Assembly: GCA_964360145.1 (NCBI GenBank)
Contig: CAYHWW010000002.1
Coordinates: forward strand, 3,473 to 67,472
Source: an uncultured Oligoflexia bacterium
GTDB lineage: Bacteria; Bdellovibrionota; UBA1018; CAYHWW01
Direction of reading: 5' to 3'
DNA length: 64,000 nucleotides
Shown one piece after another: positions 53,536 through 64,000 of the stretch. Each line of letters opens with the position of its first letter. The stretch's first letter is position 1. The translations under genes and the position numbers were made by a program. The notes under the pieces were generated by a model. The model ran no database searches. It saw only the letters and a list, made by a program, of their open reading frames with translations, and was not told the origin of the DNA.

Positions 53536-53715
53536 CTCAAAGCTACAAATTGCAATGCCAGGGCCAGGCCTCGATTTGATATTGATTAATAATTTCGACT
53601 AGTTACCGTGGCGACATTCCTCCTCCCCGTCCAAATCCTGACAGGGTGTCTAAAGGAAAGACGGTTTACCCATCCTCGCGGGCAATGTAAGACCCTCTGC
53701 GGAGGGAACAGAATC

Positions 53716-54765
53716 ATGAGACTTTTCGAGAGGATCCGCGCCGAAGGCTACGAACAGGTCGTGTTTTGCCACGACAAAGAAGTGGGCCTCAAGGCCATTG
53801 TGGCGATCCATGATTCTACCCTGGGCCCCGCCGTGGGCGGCTGCCGCATGTATCCTTATGCTTCCGAAGATGCGGCCCTGGAAGACGTGCTCCGTCTTTC
53901 TAAGGGCATGAGTTATAAATCCTCCATCAGTGGTCTCGGTTGGGGTGGCGGTAAAGCCGTCATCATCGGCGATTCAAAAAAAGATAAAACGCCGGGTCTA
54001 CTCCGCCGCTTCGCCCAATTCGTTGACTCCCTGAGCGGTCGTTACATCACCGCCAAAGACGTGGGCATCAGCACGGATGATCTTAAAATCATGCGCGAAG
54101 TGAGCCGCCATGTCCTCGGCATGGATGGAGTGCCCGGTTCCAGTGGCGATCCCTCCGTTTTCACCGGCTGGGGCGTTTATAACGGCATGAAGGCCGCCGC
54201 CGCTCATCTTTGGGGCAGTGACTCTTTGAGGGGCAAGCGCATCGCTGTGCAGGGTTTGGGCAAGGTGAGCACCTATCTCATCACCCACCTGGTGAAAGAG
54301 GGCGCTGAAGTCATTGGTGCCGACGTGGATCGTGACGCCGTGGCCCGGGCCCGGGACGAGTTTGGCGTGAAGATCGTCGATGCCGACCGTATCCTCTTTG
54401 AGGACTGTGACATTCTTTCCCCCAACGCCATGGGCGGCAGCATCACCAAAGACGTGGCGGCTCGCATCAAGTGCAAGATCGTGGCTGGTGGTGCCAACAA
54501 CCAGCTCGCCACCCCGGAAGAGGGCTATGCCCTCATGCAGCGGGGCATCGTTTATGCGCCCGACTACGCCATCAACGCCGGCGGCATCATGAACATCTAC
54601 AATGAAATCGGTGGCTACGACGCGAAGAAGGCTTGGGACCATGTGGCCCAGATCCGTGGCACCGTGGCGCGAATTCTGGAGCGGGCGAAGACGGAGAAGT
54701 TGCCGCCCCACCTCATCGCCGATCGCATGGCCGAGGAGCGCATCGCCAATGGCAAGCGGCGCTGA
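53716..54765 (+). CDS. Glu/Leu/Phe/Val-family amino acid dehydrogenase (leucine dehydrogenase-like)
   Basis: Catalytic Lys region GLGWGGGKAVIIGD, NAD motif GLGKVSTYL; ATG 53716 with GGAGGGA RBS (ORF track 53608). Confidence 0.85.
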   Translation: MRLFERIRAEGYEQVVFCHDKEVGLKAIVAIHDSTLGPAVGGCRMYPYASEDAALEDVLRLSKGMSYKSSISGLGWGGGKAVIIGDSKKDKTPGLLRRFAQFVDSLSGRYITAKDVGISTDDLKIMREVSRHVLGMDGVPGSSGDPSVFTGWGVYNGMKAAAAHLWGSDSLRGKRIAVQGLGKVSTYLITHLVKEGAEVIGADVDRDAVARARDEFGVKIVDADRILFEDCDILSPNAMGGSITKDVAARIKCKIVAGGANNQLATPEEGYALMQRGIVYAPDYAINAGGIMNIYNEIGGYDAKKAWDHVAQIRGTVARILERAKTEKLPPHLIADRMAEERIANGKRR

Positions 54766-55807
54766 TCGGTTCGGCACACATAGAGTAATGGTTCCCCGGG
54801 GTAGCCTGCCGCAGCAGGCACAGAAGCTATCGCCCGCGCTTCCCATCCACGGCAATGAGATGCTCATCGAGGTTGAAGCGCTGAACATTGATTCGGCAAG
54901 CTTCCACCAGATTCGTGAGAGCTGTGGTGGCGACGTGGGGCTCATGGAGCACATGATCCGTGACATCGTGAAAGAGCGGGGCAAGCTGCAGAACCCCGTC
55001 ACTGGCTCCGGTGGCATGCTCATCGGCACCGTGAAAGAGGTGGGCTCGGAGTTTCTCGTGGAGCGTCCGGCATCCGAGCAGGTGGAGGTGGGCGACCGCA
55101 TCGCCACGCTGGTGTCGCTGACTCTGACGCCCCTCGTGATCCGTCGGGTGAAGAAGATCCACCTCGATAAAGACCGGGTGGACATCGAGGGCCACGCTAT
55201 TTTGTTTCAGAGTGGCATTTACAGCAAACTGCCATCGGACATCCCCGATGCGCTGGCACTTGCCATTCTCGACGTGGCGGGCGCCCCGGCCCAGACTCAA
55301 GCTCTATGCAAGCCTGGTCAGACCGTGGTGGTTCTGGGGGGCGCGGGCAAGTCCGGCATCCTTTGTTTATATGAGGCCAAGCGTGCGGTGGGGGCCGGGG
55401 GCCGCGTCATCGGTCTCGACTACAATGAAGCTGCCGCACGGACAATGAAGGGGTTTTCCTTTGTGGATGATGTCGCGGTAAGTGACGCCCGCAACGCCGT
55501 GGCCACCTGGCGCACGGTGAGTGAGCTCACCGGGGGCAAGATGGCCGACGTGGTCATCAACGTCACCAATATCCCCGACACCGAGATGTCCTGCATTCTG
55601 GCAGCTAAGCCCGGGGGGCTGGCGTACTTTTTCAGCATGGCCACGAGCTTTACCAAGGCAGCCCTGGGGGCTGAGGGCGTGGGGGCCCACGTGGAGCTTA
55701 TCATGGGCAACGGATACCGCCCCGGTCATGCCGCGCTTTCCCTCGACATCCTGAGGCAATCGCGGGAGATTCGGGAACTATACGAGCGCAAGTATGGCCC
55801 ATCTTGA
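54749..55807 (+). CDS. kdd: L-erythro-3,5-diaminohexanoate dehydrogenase-like
   Basis: Read as Kdd from length, linkage with kamDE and kce, and a nucleotide-binding-like fold (VVVLGGAGKSGI); exact start uncertain (54749 or 54788). Confidence 0.7.
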   Translation: MASGADRFGTHRVMVPRGSLPQQAQKLSPALPIHGNEMLIEVEALNIDSASFHQIRESCGGDVGLMEHMIRDIVKERGKLQNPVTGSGGMLIGTVKEVGSEFLVERPASEQVEVGDRIATLVSLTLTPLVIRRVKKIHLDKDRVDIEGHAILFQSGIYSKLPSDIPDALALAILDVAGAPAQTQALCKPGQTVVVLGGAGKSGILCLYEAKRAVGAGGRVIGLDYNEAAARTMKGFSFVDDVAVSDARNAVATWRTVSELTGGKMADVVINVTNIPDTEMSCILAAKPGGLAYFFSMATSFTKAALGAEGVGAHVELIMGNGYRPGHAALSLDILRQSREIRELYERKYGPS

Positions 55808-57359
55808 GCTAAAACATCAGACCATCATCGAGTGTCGGCGCTTGGCGAATGAGATCGTCGCCAAGGTGAAGCCCGTTATCGACACACATACTACTGTCAG
55901 CATCGAGCGGGCGTCCCTGCGCCTCATCGGCGTCGAAGGCGCGCTGAGCCGTGAGGGGTTGTCCTACCCACTGGTGAACCACATCGTGGACCAGCTGCGG
56001 GAGGATCGGGCCCTGGCGAGTGGTGCCCTCTACTGGTTTGCCAACGCCATGATGCACACGGGTAAGTCAGTTGAAGACGTGTGCCGTGACATCACCGCGG
56101 GCGAGTTGCGTCTCGGCCAGCAGCCACGATTACCCTTGGCTGAAGTGCGTAAAATCGCCGTCGATCTCTGCCGCAAGGGGCTCGACCGCGTGGCAGCTAA
56201 AAAAGAGCAGCGCAATGTGCTTCGCAAAAAACAGGGCGATCCCTTCGACATGACCTTCCAGGGTAGTCCCCTGATCTATGTCATCGTGGCGACGGGCAAT
56301 ATCTTTGAAGACGTGGCCCAAGGCAAGGCCGCCGCCCGGGCTGGCGCCGAGGCAATCGCCGTCATCCGCAGCACTGCTCAAAGTCTCCTCGACTATGTCC
56401 CCGAGGGCGCGACCACCGAAGGCTTCGGTGGCACCTACGCCACGCAAGAAAACTTTCGCATCATGCGAGCGGCACTGGACGAAGTCGGTGACGAAGTGGG
56501 GCGCTACATCCGCCTCACGAATTATTCCTCCGGGCTTTGCATGTCCGAGATCGCCGCCACGGCGGCGTTGGAGCGCCTGGACTTCCTGTTGAATGACGCC
56601 ATGTACGGCATTCTCTTCCGCGACATCAACATGAAGCGCACTCTCATCGACCAGCACTTCTCGCGTCTCATCATTTCCGCCGCGGATATCGTTATTCATA
56701 CCGGGGAAGATAATTATCTCACCACCGCCGATGCGGTGGAAAATGGCCATCAGGTGCTGGCCTCCCAGTTCATCAATGAACGTTTTGCCGTGAACGCCCA
56801 CATGCGTGAAGAGCAGATGGGCTTGGGCCACGCCGCGGAGATGAACCCCTGGCATCCCAATGTGTTGCTCCTCGAGATTGCCCGGGCGCAGATGACACGG
56901 GATATTTTCCCCAAGGCACCCATTAAGTTCATGCCGCCCACCCGCCACAAGGTCGGCGATATTTTCTTCAGTCACTTGATGGATGCCATGTTCAATCTCG
57001 TGGGATCCCTCACCAACCAGGGCATTCAGCTCCTGGGCATGCCCACCGAGGCCATGCATACGCCTCTGCTCATGGACCGCTGGATGAGTATTAAGAACGC
57101 CAAGTACGTCTTCGGCGCCACGAAAGACCTGGGCAAAGAGATCACTTTCAAAAAAGATGGCGTGATCTCCAAGTGGGCCAATAAAGTATTGGATGACACC
57201 CTGACTCTCCTGCGTCGCATCGAGCGTGACAGCTTATTCAAGGCAATCGAAGAGAAGGCTTTTGCCAACGTGTCCCGCAAACTCGATGGCGGCAAGGGCC
57301 TGGATGGTGTCGTGCTTCGGGACAAAGATTATCTCAACCCTTTCTTTGAGCTCCTATGA
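55794..57359 (+). CDS. kamD: lysine 5,6-aminomutase alpha subunit (PLP-binding)
   Basis: 521 aa; N-terminus HTTVSIERASLRLIGVEGA resembles the KamD sequence as I recall it. Confidence 0.88.
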   Translation: MAHLELKHQTIIECRRLANEIVAKVKPVIDTHTTVSIERASLRLIGVEGALSREGLSYPLVNHIVDQLREDRALASGALYWFANAMMHTGKSVEDVCRDITAGELRLGQQPRLPLAEVRKIAVDLCRKGLDRVAAKKEQRNVLRKKQGDPFDMTFQGSPLIYVIVATGNIFEDVAQGKAAARAGAEAIAVIRSTAQSLLDYVPEGATTEGFGGTYATQENFRIMRAALDEVGDEVGRYIRLTNYSSGLCMSEIAATAALERLDFLLNDAMYGILFRDINMKRTLIDQHFSRLIISAADIVIHTGEDNYLTTADAVENGHQVLASQFINERFAVNAHMREEQMGLGHAAEMNPWHPNVLLLEIARAQMTRDIFPKAPIKFMPPTRHKVGDIFFSHLMDAMFNLVGSLTNQGIQLLGMPTEAMHTPLLMDRWMSIKNAKYVFGATKDLGKEITFKKDGVISKWANKVLDDTLTLLRRIERDSLFKAIEEKAFANVSRKLDGGKGLDGVVLRDKDYLNPFFELL

Positions 57360-58108
57360 AGACGGATCTAAAGGCCCTCAAGCCCTACGGCGACATGATG
57401 GGTGACGGCGTAGTGCAGCTTTCCTTTACGTTGCCCGTGGAGCAAGGGCCCGAAGCCCGAGAGGCCGCCGTGCAGCTGGCTCAGAAGATGGGCCTCGATG
57501 AGGTGAAGATCGCCACCATGGAATCCGCCACCAGCGGCTTCGCCTTTTTTGTCATCTACGGGAAGATGAAGCACACCGTGGATTACACCGCGATCCGGGT
57601 GGTGAAGATCGAGGCGGCAAAGCGTTCACGTGAGGAAATCGACGAGCTCATCAAAGAAAAATTGGGCCGCAAGGTCGTGATCCTCGGCGCCTGCACGGGC
57701 TACGACGCTCACACCGTGGGCATCGATGCTATCTTCAACATGAAAGGCTTCGCCGGTGACTACGGTCTCGAGCGCTACGAGTGGCTGGATGCCCGCAACC
57801 TGGGCGCCCAGGTGCTCAATGAAGAGCTTCTGAAAAAGGCCATTGAGGCCAAGGCCGACGCCATTCTCGTGTCGAAGATTGTCACCCAGCACAACATTCA
57901 CATCACGGATCTGAAGGACCTCCTCGTTAAGGCCGAGCAGATGGGCTTGCGTGACAAGTTGGTGTTTGTGGCCGGCGGCCCTCGCCTCACCCACCAGATC
58001 GCCTTGGAGTGCGGCTTTGATGCGGGCTTTGGCGTGGGCACTAAACCTAGCGAAGTGGCGAGCTACGTTGTGGAAGAAGTTTTGAAGCGCAAAAAGGGTA
58101 GCGACTGA
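57356..58108 (+). CDS. kamE: lysine 5,6-aminomutase beta subunit (B12-binding)
   Basis: About 250 aa; B12-binding Rossmann domain with DxHxxG (GYDAHTVGID). Confidence 0.88.
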   Translation: MKTDLKALKPYGDMMGDGVVQLSFTLPVEQGPEAREAAVQLAQKMGLDEVKIATMESATSGFAFFVIYGKMKHTVDYTAIRVVKIEAAKRSREEIDELIKEKLGRKVVILGACTGYDAHTVGIDAIFNMKGFAGDYGLERYEWLDARNLGAQVLNEELLKKAIEAKADAILVSKIVTQHNIHITDLKDLLVKAEQMGLRDKLVFVAGGPRLTHQIALECGFDAGFGVGTKPSEVASYVVEEVLKRKKGSD

Positions 58109-58998
58109 TGGCGAAGGGCGCTCAAACTCCCCAGCAAATTCTCGCCACGGTCCAGGGCAAGGGTGGCATCATCGGCCGTGGCGAAGAGGTGCGCAGGCTC
58201 GCCCTCATGTTGCTGGCCGGTCGCAATATCCTCATCGAAGGCCCCGTGGGCGCGGGTAAAACCGCTTTGGCACAAGCCGTGGCCCATGCGTTGGGCCGCA
58301 CCGTCATCCGAGTGGACGGCGACTCACGTTTTACGGAGCAGAAACTCACGGGCTGGTTCGACCCCGCCCAAGCTTTGAAAAAAGGCTTCAACGCCAGCAC
58401 CTTCGTCGACGGCCCCCTGGTGGGCGCCATGAAGGCGGGGGCAGTGCTTTTCATCAACGAGTTGAACCGCATGCCCGAGGCGGTGCAGAACGTGCTCCTT
58501 CCCGCCATTGATGAGGGCATTGTGCAGATTCCGCAGCTGGGCCCGGTGCGTGCGAAGCCCGGTTTCCTCCTCATCGCAACTCAGAATCCGCGGGAATTCG
58601 TGGCCACCTCCCATCTGTCCGAAGCCCTCATGGATCGCATGGAGTGGTTGCCGCTCTCTTATCAATCCGCCGAGGAAGAGCGCACCATCGTGGAGACGCT
58701 CTCGGAGTTTTCCGAGAAACCCTACTTGGACATGGTCATCAGTCTCACGCGAATGACGCGTAATCACCCCAAAATCAAGCGTGGTGCTTCGGTGCGGGCG
58801 GCCATAGCCATCGCACGCATTTTGTCCGTCACGTTGACGGTCATGGGCAAAATCACGGATCAGGACTTTCTCGATGCGGTCATGGCGGCGCTGCCCACGC
58901 GCATCGAACTCTTTGGCTCTGAGTCAGAGGGTGGCACGGAAGCCATGGTGAAGAGTCTCGTCTTGGAGCTCATCGAGGAAGTAAAAAAAAAATCTTGA
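58108..58998 (+). CDS. MoxR-family AAA+ ATPase
   Basis: Walker A GPVGAGKTALAQ, Walker B LFINELNRMP, sensor region; about 296 aa typical MoxR size; A10 tract at 3' end. Confidence 0.85.
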   Translation: MAKGAQTPQQILATVQGKGGIIGRGEEVRRLALMLLAGRNILIEGPVGAGKTALAQAVAHALGRTVIRVDGDSRFTEQKLTGWFDPAQALKKGFNASTFVDGPLVGAMKAGAVLFINELNRMPEAVQNVLLPAIDEGIVQIPQLGPVRAKPGFLLIATQNPREFVATSHLSEALMDRMEWLPLSYQSAEEERTIVETLSEFSEKPYLDMVISLTRMTRNHPKIKRGASVRAAIAIARILSVTLTVMGKITDQDFLDAVMAALPTRIELFGSESEGGTEAMVKSLVLELIEEVKKKS

Positions 58999-59936
58999 AT
59001 CCTCCTGAGGATCCGGGCTTCCTCGCCACATTGGAGATCGCCGAGCAGCGCGGCCCCGAAAAAATCGAAGTGCGCTTCCTTTCGCCGGAGTTGCTTGCCG
59101 CTGGCGCTGATGAAGATATTTCGGGCTATGATAAAAAGCCCAACTGGGACGTCGCGGTGCGCTATCAGGACCTGAAGCGTCTCTTGTCGTTGCCCGATGA
59201 GAAGAAAACCAAGCTGAAGGAGCGTGCCGTGCAAGGCATCATTGAGCGGGCCAAGGCGGCCATGGGCTCCGTCATCAAGCCGGAAAAGAAAGAACTTCTG
59301 TCCTGGCAGGAGTTCACGGCCAAGGGAGCCCACGGGGAGCTGGACGTCACGGCCACCCTGGACGAGATGGTGGGGCGCGGCGAGATCCTTGAGTCTCTGC
59401 GTTTCGAGGCCCGGGTGCAGAAGGACCGAGATGTGGTGGTGCTTCTCGATGCCAGTCTCAGCATGACCAGCGACAAGATGGCGCTGCTCGCGGTTGCCAG
59501 CGCGGTGGTCGCTCTTTGCGTGCCCTCCCGTCACCTCTGCCTTGTGTCATTTTCTTCACAGCCCCGCATGGTCAAGCGTTTCGACGAAGAGCTCTCCGTG
59601 AAGACGGTTGTGGAAAGAGTTTTAGAGATTCCCACCCTGGGCCTCACGAACATCGAGGGTGCATTATTGGAGGCACTCAAAATACTCGATCGCGAAGGAC
59701 GCCCCGGCGCCAACGTGATTTTGGTGGGCGATGGTAAGTACACCGAGGGGAAAGACCCATCATATCTCGGGGGGCGCTTCAAAAAACTCCACGCTTTGAA
59801 GCTGGGCCGGGATATCGCCGGTCGGGCGTTGTTGCAGGACCTGGTGCGCCAGGGCAACGGCCGCCTCTTCGAGGTGCGACGCATGCCCGAGCTTCCTCGG
59901 GTCATGTACGGAGCGTTGCGTTCCCTCCTGCGCTAA
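58995..59936 (+). CDS. VWA (von Willebrand factor A) domain protein, MoxR partner
   Basis: VWA fold with MIDAS-like motif (VVVLLDASLSMTSDK), TTG start overlapping the MoxR stop (translational coupling). Confidence 0.7.
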   Translation: MNPPEDPGFLATLEIAEQRGPEKIEVRFLSPELLAAGADEDISGYDKKPNWDVAVRYQDLKRLLSLPDEKKTKLKERAVQGIIERAKAAMGSVIKPEKKELLSWQEFTAKGAHGELDVTATLDEMVGRGEILESLRFEARVQKDRDVVVLLDASLSMTSDKMALLAVASAVVALCVPSRHLCLVSFSSQPRMVKRFDEELSVKTVVERVLEIPTLGLTNIEGALLEALKILDREGRPGANVILVGDGKYTEGKDPSYLGGRFKKLHALKLGRDIAGRALLQDLVRQGNGRLFEVRRMPELPRVMYGALRSLLR

Positions 59937-59969: not shown

Positions 59970-60785
59970 GTGGAAAAGCTCATTATTACTTGCGCCATCA
60001 CGGGTGCGGAGACCATGAAGCAGGCTTGTCCGCCGCTTCCCACTACTCCGGACGAACAGGCTCAAGCTGCCTACGACTGCTGGAAGGCTGGGGCCACGGT
60101 CATTCATCTCCATGTGCGTGACGACCAGGGTAAGCCCACCCCGTCCCTCGCGCGTTTCAAAGAGAGCATCGAAAAAATCCGCGCAAAATGCCCCGTCATC
60201 ATCCAGATTTCAACGGGCGGCGCCGTGGGTGACCCCATGGACCAGCGCATGGCGCCCCTCGCTTTGAAGCCAGAAATGGCGAGCCTTAATACGGGGTCCA
60301 TCAATTTCGGTGACGACGTGTTCATCAACCACCCCAGAGAGGTGGAGGCCCTCGCCGCTAAAATTTACGGACTCGGAATCATGCCCGAGCTCGAGATTTA
60401 TGATTTTGGCATGCTGGAGGCCACCCTGCGCATGTTGAAAAAGGGCATCCTGAAAGAGCCTGCCCATTTTCAATTCGTGCTGGGCACCAGCCACGGCATG
60501 AGCGGCGAGGCGCGAAATCTTTGTCGTCTGGCTGACGCCATCCCCGGTGGCGCATCGTGGGGCGTGGCGGGCATCGGCCGCTACCAGCTGCCCTGCGCCG
60601 CTCAGGCCATCACCATGGGGGGCCATGTGCGGGTGGGCCTGGAGGATAACATCTATTGGTCCAAGGGTGTCGTGGCCCAAAGCAACGCTCAATTGGTTGC
60701 CCGAGTGAAGCAGTTAGCGGATACTTTGCAGCGTCCCGTGGCCACGGTAGAGGAAGCCAGGCAAATCCTGGGTTTGAACAAATGA
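59970..60785 (+). CDS. kce: 3-keto-5-aminohexanoate cleavage enzyme (BKACE/DUF849 family)
   Basis: TIM-barrel BKACE motifs (LIITCAITGAET, ATVIHLHVRD, ISTGG, HVRVGLEDN); GTG start with AAGAGGGGA RBS. Confidence 0.85.
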   Translation: MEKLIITCAITGAETMKQACPPLPTTPDEQAQAAYDCWKAGATVIHLHVRDDQGKPTPSLARFKESIEKIRAKCPVIIQISTGGAVGDPMDQRMAPLALKPEMASLNTGSINFGDDVFINHPREVEALAAKIYGLGIMPELEIYDFGMLEATLRMLKKGILKEPAHFQFVLGTSHGMSGEARNLCRLADAIPGGASWGVAGIGRYQLPCAAQAITMGGHVRVGLEDNIYWSKGVVAQSNAQLVARVKQLADTLQRPVATVEEARQILGLNK

Positions 60786-62002
60786 AGCAAGCGACAGTGT
60801 CATTGGCCGATATTGAGCAGGCTCGTCAATTTCTTAAAACCATCATTGAGCCCACGCCGCTGCTTTACAACCAGTGGTTGAGTCAGAGCCTCGGCTTCGA
60901 GTGTTACCTGAAGCTGGAGAACATGCTGCCCATCGGCTCCTTCAAGCTCCGAGGCGCTGCCTACAAAATTTCCACCCTGACGTCGCAACAAAAGCGCAAG
61001 GGCGTCATCTGCGCCAGTGCCGGCAACCATGCGCAGGGTGTGGCTTGGGGCGCCCGTCATCTGGGCGTGGATGCCACCATCGTCATGCCCGAAGGTGCGA
61101 GCCTTGTGAAAGTGCAGAGCACCAAAGCCCTCGGTGCGAAGATTATATTCCACGGCAATAGCTATGATGAGGCTTTTACGGAGGCATCCGCCATTGCGCG
61201 TCGCACGGGTAAAGTTTTTGTCCACGCTTTTGAGGACAAATCCGTCATGGCTGGTCAGGGGACTATTGGTCTGGAGATTGTGGATCAGCTGCCAGAAGTT
61301 GATGCGGTGATCGGTTCCATTGGTGGTGGTGGTCTCATGGCTGGCGTGGGAACCGCGCTCAAAGCTCTCAAGCCACAGATCAAAATATACGGCTGTCAGG
61401 CGGCAGGGGCCCCGGCCATCTACCGGGCGCTCAAGTCCCACAAGGCACTGACTCTGGATCGGGTGGATACTTTCGCTGATGGCATCGCCGTGCGTTCAGC
61501 AAAGCCCGCCATGCTGAAGATCTTAAGGGGCGTGCTCGATGGGATCTATTTAGCAGATGACGAAGCCATCGCTGAGTCCATGCTCACCCTCATGGAAAAA
61601 GCGAAAACCGTGGCGGAAGCTTCCGCGGCCATCACGTTATCCATCGCTCAAAACATCCGCTCCAAGCTTAAGGGCCAGAAAGTCGTTCTCATCATCTGCG
61701 GAGGCAATGTGGACGTTAACGTCCTGGGCCGAGTCATTGACCGCGGTCTGATCAAGGCCGGGCGCCGCATTCGCCTCAATGTGCATATTTCCGACAGGCC
61801 CGGCTCACTAAGCGCGCTGACCGGTGTCATTGCCGCGGCAGGTGCTAACATTCTTCAGGCAATCCATGATCGCGGGGAGCTTTCCACGGGGCTCAATGAA
61901 ACCGGCGTGGAATTGACCCTGGAAACCCGCGGTCCGGAGCACACAAAGGAACTGTTGAAAAAATTGCGCACCGTGGTGACGCAATTGGATATGTTACACT
62001 GA
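60782..62002 (+). CDS. ilvA: threonine ammonia-lyase (threonine dehydratase) with C-terminal ACT-like domain
   Basis: PLP-Lys motif SFKLRGA, GGGGL glycine loop, C-terminal regulatory domain; ATG 60782 overlaps kce stop (ORF track 60656). Confidence 0.85.
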   Translation: MKQATVSLADIEQARQFLKTIIEPTPLLYNQWLSQSLGFECYLKLENMLPIGSFKLRGAAYKISTLTSQQKRKGVICASAGNHAQGVAWGARHLGVDATIVMPEGASLVKVQSTKALGAKIIFHGNSYDEAFTEASAIARRTGKVFVHAFEDKSVMAGQGTIGLEIVDQLPEVDAVIGSIGGGGLMAGVGTALKALKPQIKIYGCQAAGAPAIYRALKSHKALTLDRVDTFADGIAVRSAKPAMLKILRGVLDGIYLADDEAIAESMLTLMEKAKTVAEASAAITLSIAQNIRSKLKGQKVVLIICGGNVDVNVLGRVIDRGLIKAGRRIRLNVHISDRPGSLSALTGVIAAAGANILQAIHDRGELSTGLNETGVELTLETRGPEHTKELLKKLRTVVTQLDMLH

Positions 62003-63234: not shown

Positions 63235-64000
63235 CTATCCCAGCGATTGCTCCAGCAGCTCAGCGACGTCTTTGACCACGACCTTGTCGCCCACATCTTT
63301 GGCCTTCACGCCGTCGGTCATCATGGTCATGCAGAAGGGGCAGTTGGCGGCGATGATTTTCGCGCCGGTTTCCAGTGCTTGTTCCGTGCGGGTGACGTTG
63401 ACCCGGGCGCCGATGTGTTCTTCCATCCACATGCGGCCGCCGCCAGCGCCGCAGCACATGGACTTGTTGGCGGACTTGGCCATTTCGGTGATCTTCACTC
63501 CGGGGATGGACTCCATGAGTTTTCGAGGAGCGGAATACTCGCCGTTCCATCGCCCCATGTAGCAGCTGTCGTGGTAGGTCACTGATTCCGTGAAGCCCTT
63601 CTGGGGCCTCAGCGCGCCCTTGGCGATGAGTTCTGCCAGCAGCTGGGTGTGGTGGATGACTTCGTAGTTGCCCCCGAAGTCCTTCCACTCATTTTTGATG
63701 GCATTGAAACAGTGGGGGCAGGCAGTGACCACTTTTTTTACGCCGTAGCGGTTCAACGTCGCGACGTTTTCTTTGATGAGCATTTGGGCGAGATATTCGT
63801 TGCCCATGCGGCGGGCGGGGTCGCCGGTGCACTTCTCTTCGTTGCCGAGGATGGCGAACTTCACGCCGGCCTTGTTCATGAGATTCACCAGGGCGCGGGA
63901 CACTTTTTTGTTGCGATCATCGAATGAGCCCGCGCAGCCCACCCAGAACAGGTAGTCCAGGGGCTCGCCCGCGACGTCGGCCATTTTCTTTACGCTAGAG
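63235..64000 (-). CDS. (Fe-S)-binding CCG-domain oxidoreductase subunit (GlpC/LutA/GlcF-like), 5' end probably beyond the window
   Basis: Two cysteine-rich CCG-type motifs (CPHCFN..., CCGAGGG...ANCPFCM); ORF reaches within 16 nt of the window edge. Confidence 0.65.
   Translation of the reverse strand, partial: SSVKKMADVAGEPLDYLFWVGCAGSFDDRNKKVSRALVNLMNKAGVKFAILGNEEKCTGDPARRMGNEYLAQMLIKENVATLNRYGVKKVVTACPHCFNAIKNEWKDFGGNYEVIHHTQLLAELIAKGALRPQKGFTESVTYHDSCYMGRWNGEYSAPRKLMESIPGVKITEMAKSANKSMCCGAGGGRMWMEEHIGARVNVTRTEQALETGAKIIAANCPFCMTMMTDGVKAKDVGDKVVVKDVAELLEQSLG

What the first reader, a model, noticed from the sequence alone, without database searches (positions are those of the whole stretch)
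58108..59936. MoxR AAA+ ATPase and VWA protein embedded inside the B12-aminomutase cluster: candidate dedicated reactivase or chaperone
A translationally coupled MoxR-family ATPase and VWA-domain gene pair sits between kamE and kce, with overlapping stop and start codons throughout kdd-kamD-kamE-moxR-vwa. Adenosylcobalamin-dependent lysine 5,6-aminomutase undergoes suicide inactivation, and an ATP-dependent reactivating activity has been reported biochemically without a firmly assigned gene. Other B12 enzymes use dedicated ATPase reactivases or G-protein chaperones. A MoxR/VWA chaperone pair in this position may therefore be a reactivation or cofactor-insertion system specific to this aminomutase, which as far as I know has not been described.
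Basis: inference. Interest (0 to 1): 0.78.

Follow-up and report, generated by a model that had tools for sequence, protein, structure and literature searches.

The report
AAA+/VWA helper of B12 lysine aminomutase
In one bacterial lineage a motor-protein gene and its adaptor gene are fused into the operon of a vitamin-B12 lysine-rearranging enzyme, in clusters that lack the repair factor other microbes encode beside that enzyme, so the pair is probably an undescribed alternative repair or cofactor-loading machine.

Summary
Window 58108-58998 encodes a MoxR-class AAA+ ATPase and 58995-59936 a VWA protein with an intact MIDAS site. Both are translationally coupled behind kamD-kamE.

The kamD-kamE-AAA-VWA order recurs in every Bdellovibrionota-type kamDE locus whose contig reaches far enough: 15 of 80 genome loci, 26 metagenome loci and 6 of 7 exact-protein look-ups. 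It also persists as a bare four-gene unit without kdd or kce.

These loci never carry KamB/KamC, which NCBIfam names the lysine 5,6-aminomutase reactivase. KamB/KamC sit next to kamDE in 46 other loci, and no locus has both. KamD proteins split into two clades that match the accessory type.

Against exclusivity, proteins about 50% identical, often fused AAA-VWA, occur elsewhere:
- beside corrinoid genes (MttB, MtrH, CobA adenosyltransferase, RACo)
- behind a histidine kinase
- in two clusters that lack kamDE

Best reading (inferred, untested): an ATP-driven KamDE reactivase or cofactor-exchange chaperone that replaces KamBC and works like CbbQO or NorQD.

It is a new variant of a known kind, of moderate to high interest.

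The parts
53716..54765 (+). ELFV-family amino-acid dehydrogenase, first gene of the operon. The ORF opens at 53608; the homology-supported ATG is at 53716.
   Evidence: Pfam ELFV_dehydrog_N and ELFV_dehydrog. The best NCBIfam match is Trp dehydrogenase ScyB at 353 bits, below its cutoff of 600. The gene is conserved upstream of kdd in many AAA-VWA-type loci.
54749..55807 (+). kdd, L-erythro-3,5-diaminohexanoate dehydrogenase. The ORF opens at 54602; the likely ATG is at 54749.
   Evidence: NF052381, 246 bits against a cutoff of 200. The junction sequence was read.
55794..57359 (+). kamD, lysine 5,6-aminomutase alpha subunit (PLP/TIM barrel).
   Evidence: NF052384 at 751 bits; Pfam Lys-AminoMut_A at 758 bits. 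It scores 599 bits against the PDB D-lysine 5,6-aminomutase alpha chains 9q1a and 8t0v.
57356..58108 (+). kamE, lysine 5,6-aminomutase beta subunit (B12-binding).
   Evidence: NF052385 at 359 bits; Pfam OAM_dimer plus B12-binding. PDB beta chains are matched.
58108..58998 (+). MoxR-class (AAA_5) AAA+ ATPase, the proposed motor subunit.
   Evidence: Pfam AAA_5 and AAA_3. Motifs across the family: Walker A GPVGAGKT is invariant. Walker B reads LFINELNR, with Asn117 where Asp is usual, and Glu118 kept. Sensor-1 N160, Arg finger R177 and sensor-2 R230 are invariant. The start codon overlaps the kamE stop.
58995..59936 (+). VWA-domain protein with an intact MIDAS site, the proposed substrate adaptor.
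   Evidence: Pfam VWA_CoxE, VWA_2 and VWA. MIDAS residues D152, S154, S156, T218 and D246 are invariant in 32 homologues. The AlphaFold2 model has mean pLDDT 85, with residues 1-41 disordered. Foldseek finds VWA folds, including NorD in NorQD complexes.
59970..60785 (+). kce, 3-keto-5-aminohexanoate cleavage enzyme (BKACE family).
   Evidence: Pfam BKACE at 351 bits; NF052387 at 377 bits against a cutoff of 382.
60782..62002 (+). PLP-dependent threonine-ammonia-lyase-like enzyme with an ACT domain, last gene of the operon. The ORF opens at 60656; the ATG at 60782 overlaps the kce stop.
   Evidence: TIGR01127 at 422 bits against a cutoff of 379; Pfam PALP plus ACT. The junction ATGA was read. 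The gene is conserved after kce in L001, L003, L084 and L168.

Best explanation
The two genes encode a MoxR-class AAA+ ring and a VWA adaptor that together form an ATP-driven remodelling machine whose client is the adenosylcobalamin- and PLP-dependent lysine 5,6-aminomutase KamDE. In the Bdellovibrionota-type lineage it takes the place of the KamB/KamC reactivase.

Proposed mechanism, step by step (all inferred):
1. The MIDAS site of the VWA protein docks onto an acidic side chain of KamDE. Candidates are the residues specific to this clade: KamE D135 and D185, and KamD D389.
2. The AAA+ hexamer, held to the VWA protein through its conserved N-terminal helical region and VWA loops, hydrolyses ATP and pulls or twists the adaptor.
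3. This opens the interface between the B12-binding domain and the TIM barrel. The oxidised cob(III)alamin and 5'-deoxyadenosine left by suicide inactivation can then leave, and fresh adenosylcobalamin can bind.

Shown here: the genes, their motifs, the conserved coupling to kamDE, and the exclusion with KamBC.
Inferred: the physical complex, the client, and cofactor exchange.
For: 1. Conserved gene order. kamD-kamE-AAA-VWA occurs in all 15 genome loci of the Bdellovibrionota, Oligoflexia and Bacteriovoracia type. It occurs in 26 of 80 metagenome loci found with the AAA alone. It occurs in 6 of 7 exact-protein look-ups.
2. Tight coupling. The kamE stop overlaps the AAA start by 4 nt in most loci, and the spacer never exceeds 22 nt.
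3. The link is to KamDE, not to the pathway. A subclade keeps only the four-gene unit kamD-kamE-AAA-VWA between unrelated genes, namely a response regulator and PilZ upstream, and GT9 and MlaC downstream.
4. Mutual exclusion with the named reactivase. There are 46 loci with KamB/KamC only, 15 with AAA-VWA only and 0 with both; Fisher p = 4e-10, not corrected for phylogeny.
5. Co-diversification. All AAA-VWA-linked KamD proteins form one clade, sister to the rest, and the AAA groups mirror the KamD subclades.
6. An independent B12 link. Fused AAA-VWA relatives lie next to ATP:corrinoid adenosyltransferase CobA, the corrinoid reductive activase RACo, MttB and MtrH methyltransferases, DUF2284 and a B12-radical SAM gene in 16 loci.
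7. A biochemical need. Recombinant KamDE suicide-inactivates to cob(III)alamin, and the native enzyme needs an ATP-dependent activating protein E2 (PMC3958899; PMC9081730).
8. Precedent. MoxR-AAA+/VWA pairs repair or mature enzymes. CbbQO releases inhibitors from Rubisco through a MIDAS-carboxylate contact (PMC4660213). NorQD remodels a linker to insert a metal cofactor (PMC13036017).
9. The ATPase and MIDAS motifs are intact and under strong conservation.
Against: - There is no biochemical or interaction data; everything rests on gene context.
- All kam-linked cases belong to one KamD clade, so the exclusion with KamBC may reflect a single ancient event rather than repeated displacement.
- Absence of kamB/kamC was tested only within about 10 kb, and within the 64-kb window, not in whole genomes. 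Seven kamDE loci, mostly Bacteroidales, have neither accessory nearby. This shows that a reactivase can be encoded elsewhere.
- The family is not exclusive to kamDE. Among the 80 closest metagenomic AAA relatives, 12 sit behind a GAF histidine kinase with polyamine-type genes and 10 sit in assorted contexts. L085, one of the closest relatives of the window pair, has no kam gene within 8 kb upstream.
- Two clusters keep ELFV-DH(-kdd)-AAA-VWA without kamDE (L166/L167; L100).
- In the AAA neighbour-joining tree the kam-linked sequences are not a single clean clade.
- Walker B carries Asn instead of Asp throughout the family. The effect on hydrolysis is unknown.
Confidence: 0.5

Rival explanations
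1. The pair is a holoenzyme-assembly chaperone. It loads adenosylcobalamin (or PLP) into newly made apo-KamDE once, as NorQD inserts iron into NO reductase. It does not repeatedly repair inactivated enzyme.
For: Characterised MoxR/VWA pairs such as NorQD are cofactor-insertion factors (PMC13036017; PMC9976466 listed). The VWA protein matches the CoxE-type VWA model. Fused relatives sit directly after the adenosyltransferase CobA, which makes the cofactor to be delivered.
Against: Recombinant KamDE from other organisms binds AdoCbl and is active without any helper; its limitation is suicide inactivation (PMC3958899). The genes it appears to replace are named as a reactivase. The two roles are not exclusive and cannot be separated from sequence.
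Confidence: 0.15
2. The pair has no functional tie to KamDE. It is a general-purpose MoxR/VWA module, for example stress or regulatory remodelling, that became fixed in this operon in one lineage and was inherited with it.
For: Relatives about 50% identical occur in unrelated neighbourhoods, namely histidine kinase with polyamine genes, permease and others. L085 is a close relative without kam genes. L166/L167 and L100 lack kamDE. All kam-linked cases are one clade.
Against: The 4-nt kamE/AAA overlap survives KamD divergence down to about 57% identity. It also survives loss of every other pathway gene from the neighbourhood. No kamDE locus of this clade with enough flank lacks the pair. The second largest context is again B12-related.
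Confidence: 0.15
3. The pair is an ATP-dependent allosteric activator or conformational switch. It drives KamDE between its open (locked) and closed (catalytic) states, corresponding to the ATP activation once ascribed to E2, without exchanging the cofactor.
For: Native enzyme preparations showed ATP-dependent allosteric activation that the recombinant enzyme lacks (PMC3958899; PMC9081730). KamDE needs large domain movements (title and abstract of PMC3958899).
Against: Spending ATP through a hexameric AAA+ motor for routine catalytic cycling would be costly and has no precedent among MoxR systems. Catalysis proceeds without any helper in recombinant enzymes.
Confidence: 0.08
4. The pair is a chelatase-like or metal-insertion system, either a ChlI/ChlD- or CobS/CobT-type system or one that inserts zinc into the BKACE enzyme Kce, and it does not act on KamDE.
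For: There are weak matches to BchD/ChlD, 'putative cobaltochelatase' and CobS models. JGI names some VWA homologues 'Mg-chelatase subunit ChlD'. The pair lies directly upstream of kce in the window.
Against: All chelatase models score far below their cutoffs: 42 against 500, 31 against 779 and 21 against 559 bits. The window has no ORF of CobN/BchH size; the largest is 961 aa and lies elsewhere. No such gene lies beside the four-gene units. kce is absent from many loci that keep kamDE-AAA-VWA.
Confidence: 0.04

Closest known systems
CbbQ/CbbO Rubisco activase (MoxR AAA+ plus VWA adaptor)
   Same: Both have a two-gene AAA_5-type ATPase plus a MIDAS-bearing VWA protein encoded directly after the genes of the enzyme they serve. 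The proposed job is the same: ATP-driven release of a dead-end ligand from an inhibited active site. CbbO docks through MIDAS to a surface carboxylate (PMC4660213).
   Different: The relation is only distant: CbbQ E = 3e-8 to 1e-7 in the PDB search. CbbO is about 770 aa with a long N-terminal region, whereas this VWA protein is 313 aa. The client is a B12/PLP aminomutase. Walker B carries Asn-Glu.
NorQ/NorD (MoxR AAA+ plus VWA, FeB insertion into NO reductase)
   Same: These are the best solved single-module relatives of the AAA (E = 5e-11). The NorD VWA domain in NorQD complexes is among the structural matches of the VWA model. The general principle is shared: the motor remodels the adaptor, which acts on the client.
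   Different: The client and cofactor differ. I did not test whether the pore-penetrating finger and C-terminal contact of NorD exist here. NCBIfam and Pfam do not place the pair in that family.
KamB/KamC, named lysine 5,6-aminomutase reactivase (NCBIfam NF052386 / NF052383)
   Same: Both are adjacent to kamDE and both are ATPase-based. The two are mutually exclusive in distribution, so the role is presumed to be the same.
   Different: There is no sequence relation. KamC is a MutS domain-V ABC-type ATPase and KamB is an uncharacterised P-loop-like protein, and they lie upstream of kamD. The AAA and VWA proteins match neither model.
Other B12-enzyme repair systems: diol/glycerol dehydratase reactivases DdrAB/GdrAB, EutA, the G-protein chaperone MeaB/CblA, and RACo/RamA for corrinoid proteins (from general knowledge; RACo seen)
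   Same: The logic is the same: nucleotide-dependent release of damaged or oxidised cobalamin, or its re-activation, so that the enzyme can turn over again.
   Different: Those systems use ASKHA-fold ATPases, SIMIBI GTPases or reductive activation. None uses an AAA+ ring with a VWA adaptor.
Class I chelatase motors BchI/BchD and CobS/CobT
   Same: Both combine an AAA+ motor with a VWA/MIDAS partner. BchD is itself an AAA-VWA fusion, like the fused relatives found here. CobST works in B12 synthesis.
   Different: Scores are far below the family cutoffs. There is no CobN/BchH-type substrate subunit nearby. The AAA module is of the AAA_5 type rather than the Mg_chelatase type.

Membership tests
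MoxR-class AAA+ ATPase (Pfam AAA_5 / AAA_3) | Scores above the curated Pfam threshold for AAA_5 and AAA_3. | tested here: met
   AAA_5 at 83.3 bits against 22; AAA_3 at 51 against 27.
MoxR-class AAA+ ATPase (Pfam AAA_5 / AAA_3) | Walker A, Walker B, sensor 1, arginine finger and sensor 2 motifs. | tested here: met
   GPVGAGKT, N160, R177 and R230 are invariant in 37-120 homologues. Walker B keeps the catalytic Glu118 but has Asn117 instead of Asp in 95 of 96 family members.
MoxR-class AAA+ ATPase (Pfam AAA_5 / AAA_3) | Partner VWA-domain gene immediately downstream. | tested here: met
   The VWA gene overlaps the AAA stop codon. The pairing recurs on every contig long enough to show it, and the two are fused in some relatives.
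MoxR-class AAA+ ATPase (Pfam AAA_5 / AAA_3) | Forms a hexameric ring with ATPase activity. | not testable with these tools
   Needs purified protein.
VWA domain with MIDAS | The DxSxS...T...D metal-ion-dependent adhesion site and a Rossmann-like VWA fold. | tested here: met
   D152, S154, S156, T218 and D246 are invariant. The AlphaFold2 model has pLDDT 85. Foldseek hits to VWA domains have E down to 9e-9.
CbbQ/NorQ/GvpN named subfamilies | Scores above the curated NCBIfam cutoff of a named subfamily. | tested here: not met
   GvpN at 98.8 against 266.8; MadB at 70 against 475; no NorQ or CbbQ model was reached. PDB NorQ and CbbQ match only at E = 1e-11 to 1e-7.
KamB/KamC lysine 5,6-aminomutase reactivase | Homology to NF052386 (KamB) or NF052383 (KamC). 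| tested here: not met
   Neither model appears among the hits of the AAA or VWA protein. Genuine KamB and KamC score 416 and 589 bits.
KamB/KamC lysine 5,6-aminomutase reactivase | Encoded next to kamDE, and restores activity of inactivated KamDE with ATP. | tested here: inconclusive
   Adjacency is met. Reactivation is not testable here.
Class I (ATP-dependent) chelatase I/D or S/T subunits | Scores above the cutoff for BchI/BchD or CobS/CobT, and a CobN/BchH-type large subunit is present. | tested here: not met
   TIGR02031 at 42 against 499.6; TIGR02442 at 31 against 779; TIGR01650 at 20.6 against 558.6. The window has no ORF above 961 aa. The flanks of the four-gene units hold unrelated genes.

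The most novel reading that the evidence does not exclude
The pair belongs to a small, unnamed family of AAA+/VWA machines. The family is marked by the Walker B signature hhhNE[LMI]NR, exists as split or fused genes, and has about 125 VWA cluster representatives at E <= 1e-30 among 1.84 billion proteins. In this reading its general job is ATP-driven exchange or loading of cobalamin on B12-binding domains. It would serve the adenosylcobalamin aminomutase KamDE in Bdellovibrionota and corrinoid-dependent MttB/MtrH methyltransferase systems (together with CobA and RACo) in other anaerobes. That would make it a fourth mechanistic class of B12-enzyme repair factor.
Probability: 0.3. Interest if true: 0.8.

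Novelty: new variant of a known kind. Interest (0 to 1): 0.62.

Why it matters
Lysine 5,6-aminomutase kills itself during turnover. This limits its use as a biocatalyst for beta- and diamino acids, and the repair factor of the classical enzyme has never been characterised in detail.

If an AAA+/VWA pair proves to be a KamDE reactivase, three things would follow:
- B12 enzymes would join Rubisco and NO reductase as clients of MoxR-type machines.
- There would be a second, unrelated solution to cobalamin repair to compare with KamBC, DdrAB and MeaB.
- There would be a simple two-protein tool to test for keeping recombinant KamDE active.

The parallel association of fused relatives with corrinoid methyltransferase and cofactor-activation genes suggests the function may be wider than one enzyme.

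Tried and rejected
- Literature. Eight informative full-text searches found no paper linking MoxR/VWA proteins to aminomutases, corrinoids or cobalamin reactivation, and none on KamB/KamC as a reactivase. One search on kamD/kamE was wasted on word-start matches.
- PDB. There is no KamB structure, and KamC matches only MutS-family proteins. The VWA protein has no sequence relative in the PDB.
- Cobalamin riboswitch. Rfam finds only a tRNA in the window.
- kamA, kamB and kamC elsewhere in the window. None found.
- Chelatase reading. Rejected on scores and on the missing large subunit.
- Kce or Kdd as the client. Rejected as the main reading, because a subclade keeps kamDE-AAA-VWA without them. 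L166/L167, however, point the other way.
- A client-specific region in the VWA protein. The N-terminal helical region and the DGxYTxGxDP loop are conserved in kam-linked, non-kam and fused forms alike, so no specificity determinant was found.
- A third accessory type beside the Bacteroidales kamDE genes. Only a CoA-transferase and unrelated genes are there.
- The apparent KamE-AAA 'fusion' in L143. It is an artefact of an over-extended ORF.
- Source organism. A look-up of the window's own VWA protein found nothing. An identical AAA protein is on record in a Hainich groundwater assembly.
Full report
**What is in the window**

Positions 53.7-62.0 kb carry eight + strand genes with overlapping or nearly abutting ends. 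No + strand terminator-like site lies between them. In order they are:
- an ELFV-family amino-acid dehydrogenase
- kdd
- kamD
- kamE
- an AAA+ ATPase (58108-58998)
- a VWA protein (58995-59936)
- kce
- a threonine-ammonia-lyase-like PLP/ACT protein

kamD, kamE and kdd pass NCBI's equivalog cutoffs. kce misses its cutoff by 5 bits.

The ATPase scores above threshold for Pfam AAA_5 and AAA_3. Its nearest solved relatives are the AAA modules of midasin, NorQ and CbbQ. It reaches no named NCBIfam subfamily: GvpN scores 99 bits against a cutoff of 267.

The VWA protein passes VWA_CoxE and VWA_2 and has a complete MIDAS site that is invariant in 32 homologues. An AlphaFold2 model (pLDDT 85) shows a disordered 41-residue N-terminus, a helical region and a canonical VWA fold. 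That fold matches, among others, NorD in NorQD complexes and the midasin MIDAS domain.

**Is the linkage to kamDE recurrent?**

A scan of one genome per GTDB species with a KamD alignment returned the best 80 of more than 590 loci. I called ORFs in six frames and searched them with the window's proteins.
- Fifteen loci have the AAA gene directly after kamE. All are MAGs labelled Bdellovibrionota, Oligoflexia, Bacteriovoracia, Bdellovibrio or 'Deltaproteobacteria'.
- Twelve of those fifteen also show the VWA gene. In the other three the contig ends within 0.8 kb.
- The one further locus of this KamD clade, L011, ends 173 nt after kamE.

A metagenome scan seeded with the AAA protein alone gave 26 more kamD-kamE-AAA-VWA loci. 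Six of seven exact-protein look-ups gave the same order with independent gene calls. The kamE/AAA junction is a 4-nt overlap in most loci and never more than 22 nt of spacer.

**Which gene is the partner?**

In one subclade (L026, L030, L040, L102, L119, L132, L152) only the four genes kamD-kamE-AAA-VWA remain together. They are flanked by a response regulator and a PilZ protein on one side and by a glycosyltransferase and MlaC on the other. So the constant companion of the pair is KamDE, not kdd, kce or the dehydrogenase.

A neighbour-joining tree of KamD puts all AAA-VWA-linked sequences in one clade, sister to all others. The groups seen in the AAA tree correspond to the KamD subclades. This fits long co-inheritance.

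**What do other kamDE clusters carry?**

In 46 of the 80 genome loci two genes lie near kamD, usually in the order kdd-kamA-X-Y-kamD-kamE. These loci come from Clostridia, Thermotogota, Alistipes, Asgard archaea and others.
- X matches NF052386, 'lysine 5,6-aminomutase reactivase subunit KamB' (416 bits, cutoff 210).
- Y matches NF052383, 'reactivase ATPase KamC' (589 bits, cutoff 300), a MutS domain-V ATPase.

No locus has both KamB/C and AAA-VWA. Seven loci with long flanks have neither, and twelve are too short to judge.

I found no experimental paper on KamB/KamC in the library. Reviews still describe only an approximately 80-kDa ATP-dependent protein E2.

The complementary distribution is what a non-orthologous replacement of the reactivase would produce. 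Because all AAA-VWA cases form one clade, it may reflect a single event. The Fisher p of 4e-10 should not be read as independent evidence.

**Limits of the specificity**

The 80 closest metagenomic AAA relatives (47-61% identical) fall into five groups:

| Context | Loci |
|---|---|
| kam-linked | 26 |
| corrinoid | 16 |
| histidine kinase | 12 |
| other | 10 |
| too short upstream to judge | 16 |

- In the corrinoid group the AAA and VWA domains are fused into one protein of about 600 aa. Its neighbours are MttB-family methyltransferases, MtrH-like methyltransferases, DUF2284, a CobA/BtuR ATP:corrinoid adenosyltransferase directly upstream (L111, L115, L127, L138), the corrinoid reductive activase RACo downstream (L111, L115), a B12-binding radical SAM enzyme (L112), and 2,4-diaminopentanoate dehydrogenase of the ornithine aminomutase pathway (L103).
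- The histidine-kinase group has a fused protein behind a GAF histidine kinase, followed by pyruvoyl arginine decarboxylase, a deoxyhypusine-synthase-like gene and aminotransferases. No B12 gene is in sight.
- L085 is one of the closest relatives of the window pair (AAA 328 bits, VWA 261 bits). It has no kam gene within 8 kb upstream.
- L166/L167 have ELFV-DH, kdd, AAA and VWA with no kamDE, between ISL3 transposase genes.
- In L100 the dehydrogenase gene is followed directly by the pair.

Family-wide shared features are the Walker B variant hhhNE[LMI]NR (95 of 96 sequences), the helical region before the VWA domain, and a DGxYTxGxDP loop. I could not identify a client-specific element. The VWA family is small: 125 cluster representatives at E <= 1e-30 in 1.84 billion proteins. 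No NCBIfam model covers it.

**Interpretation**

The best-supported reading is that the pair is an ATP-driven remodelling machine acting on KamDE, most likely doing the job of KamBC: releasing the oxidised cobalamin left by suicide inactivation so that adenosylcobalamin can rebind.
- The need is documented. Recombinant KamDE inactivates itself to cob(III)alamin, and native preparations needed an ATP-dependent protein.
- The mechanism has precedents in the same protein class. CbbQO frees inhibited Rubisco through a MIDAS-carboxylate contact. NorQD remodels its VWA partner to insert a cofactor.
- The recurrent corrinoid context of fused relatives independently points to B12.
- Clade-specific acidic residues offer testable docking sites: KamE D135 (His in KamBC-type enzymes), KamE D185 (Asn) and KamD D389 (Asn).

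I put 0.5 on this reading. A one-time cofactor-loading role, an allosteric-switch role and 'no functional tie' remain open. A chelatase role is contradicted.

**Caveats on method**
- ORFs were called mechanically.
- Context labels rest on phmmer with window or locus proteins at 40-50 bits or more, plus spot checks with Pfam and NCBIfam.
- Trees are neighbour-joining without support values and are midpoint-rooted.
- Only about 10 kb around each gene was seen, so 'absent' means absent nearby.

**Verdict**

It is a new variant of a known kind: a MoxR/VWA enzyme activase with a B12 aminomutase as its likely client, standing in for an unrelated reactivase. It is worth an experiment. It is not yet a demonstrated function.

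Noticed in passing
L111:7201-12123, L115, L127, L138, L097, L104, L108, L110, L112, L153 (metagenome loci): Fused AAA-VWA proteins of about 600 aa, roughly 50% identical to the window ATPase, lie between or beside corrinoid genes. These are CobA/BtuR adenosyltransferase (directly upstream), RACo reductive activase, MttB-family and MtrH-like methyltransferases, DUF2284 and a B12-radical SAM enzyme. This is a second, independent B12 context for the family.
   Followed up: partly
L122, L128, L130, L142, L144, L147, L148, L154, L159-L162: A clade of fused AAA-VWA genes always follows a GAF histidine kinase. It precedes pyruvoyl arginine decarboxylase, a deoxyhypusine-synthase-like gene and class III aminotransferases. 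No B12 gene is nearby and the client is unknown.
   Followed up: partly
L166:3884-7910 and L167; L100:1-2120: These lysine-type clusters keep AAA-VWA but lack kamDE. L166/L167 have ELFV-DH, a short kdd (320 aa) whose stop overlaps the AAA start, then VWA, flanked by ISL3 transposases. In L100 the dehydrogenase gene is followed directly by AAA-VWA.
   Followed up: partly
window 53716-54765 and 60782-62002; L001-L015, L164, L168-L170: AAA-VWA-type clusters never contain kamA (the oxygen-sensitive radical SAM lysine 2,3-aminomutase) within 10 kb, whereas KamBC-type clusters almost always do. Instead they have an ELFV-family amino-acid dehydrogenase and often a threonine-dehydratase-like PLP/ACT gene. 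ETF alpha/beta and Fe-S/CCG oxidoreductase genes recur nearby, and the window has a CCG protein at 63235-63984. This may be an aerobic or respiratory variant of lysine degradation in which the source of beta-lysine is unclear.
   Followed up: partly
window 58444-58467 (LFINELNR): Walker B has Asn in place of the usual Asp (hhhNE[LMI]NR) in 95 of 96 family members in all contexts. It is a sequence signature of this AAA subfamily, and its catalytic consequence is unknown.
   Followed up: yes
window kamE residues 135, 185, 51, 174, 231-232; kamD residues 389, 364, 320, 288: These residues are fixed in AAA-VWA-linked KamDE and different but also fixed in KamBC-type KamDE, for example KamE D135 against His and KamD D389 against Asn. 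They are candidate contact sites for the respective helper proteins.
   Followed up: partly
L015:11623-14952: In this Bdellovibrio MAG kamD and kamE are separated by about 3.3 kb, unlike every other locus. The content of the insertion was not examined.
   Followed up: no
L032, L038, L039, L043, L045, L055, L058, L079, L082: Bacteroidales kamDE genes stand without kdd, kamA, KamBC or AAA-VWA within 10 kb. They are followed by a CoA-transferase subunit and unrelated genes, so the reactivase, if there is one, is encoded elsewhere.
   Followed up: partly
L027, L028, L035, L075: Complete KamBC-type lysine fermentation clusters (kce, kdd, kamA, kamB, (kamC), kamD, kamE) occur on contigs assigned to Promethearchaeum/Promethearchaeota (Asgard archaea) and to an uncultured archaeon.
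   Followed up: no
window 59970-60785: The kce homologue scores 377 bits, just under the NCBIfam equivalog cutoff of 382. Its substrate could therefore differ slightly from that of canonical 3-keto-5-aminohexanoate cleavage enzyme.
   Followed up: no
L103:5164-8328: A 2,4-diaminopentanoate dehydrogenase gene, from the pathway of the B12-dependent ornithine 4,5-aminomutase, lies directly upstream of a fused AAA-VWA gene. No oraSE gene was seen in the stretch held.
   Followed up: no
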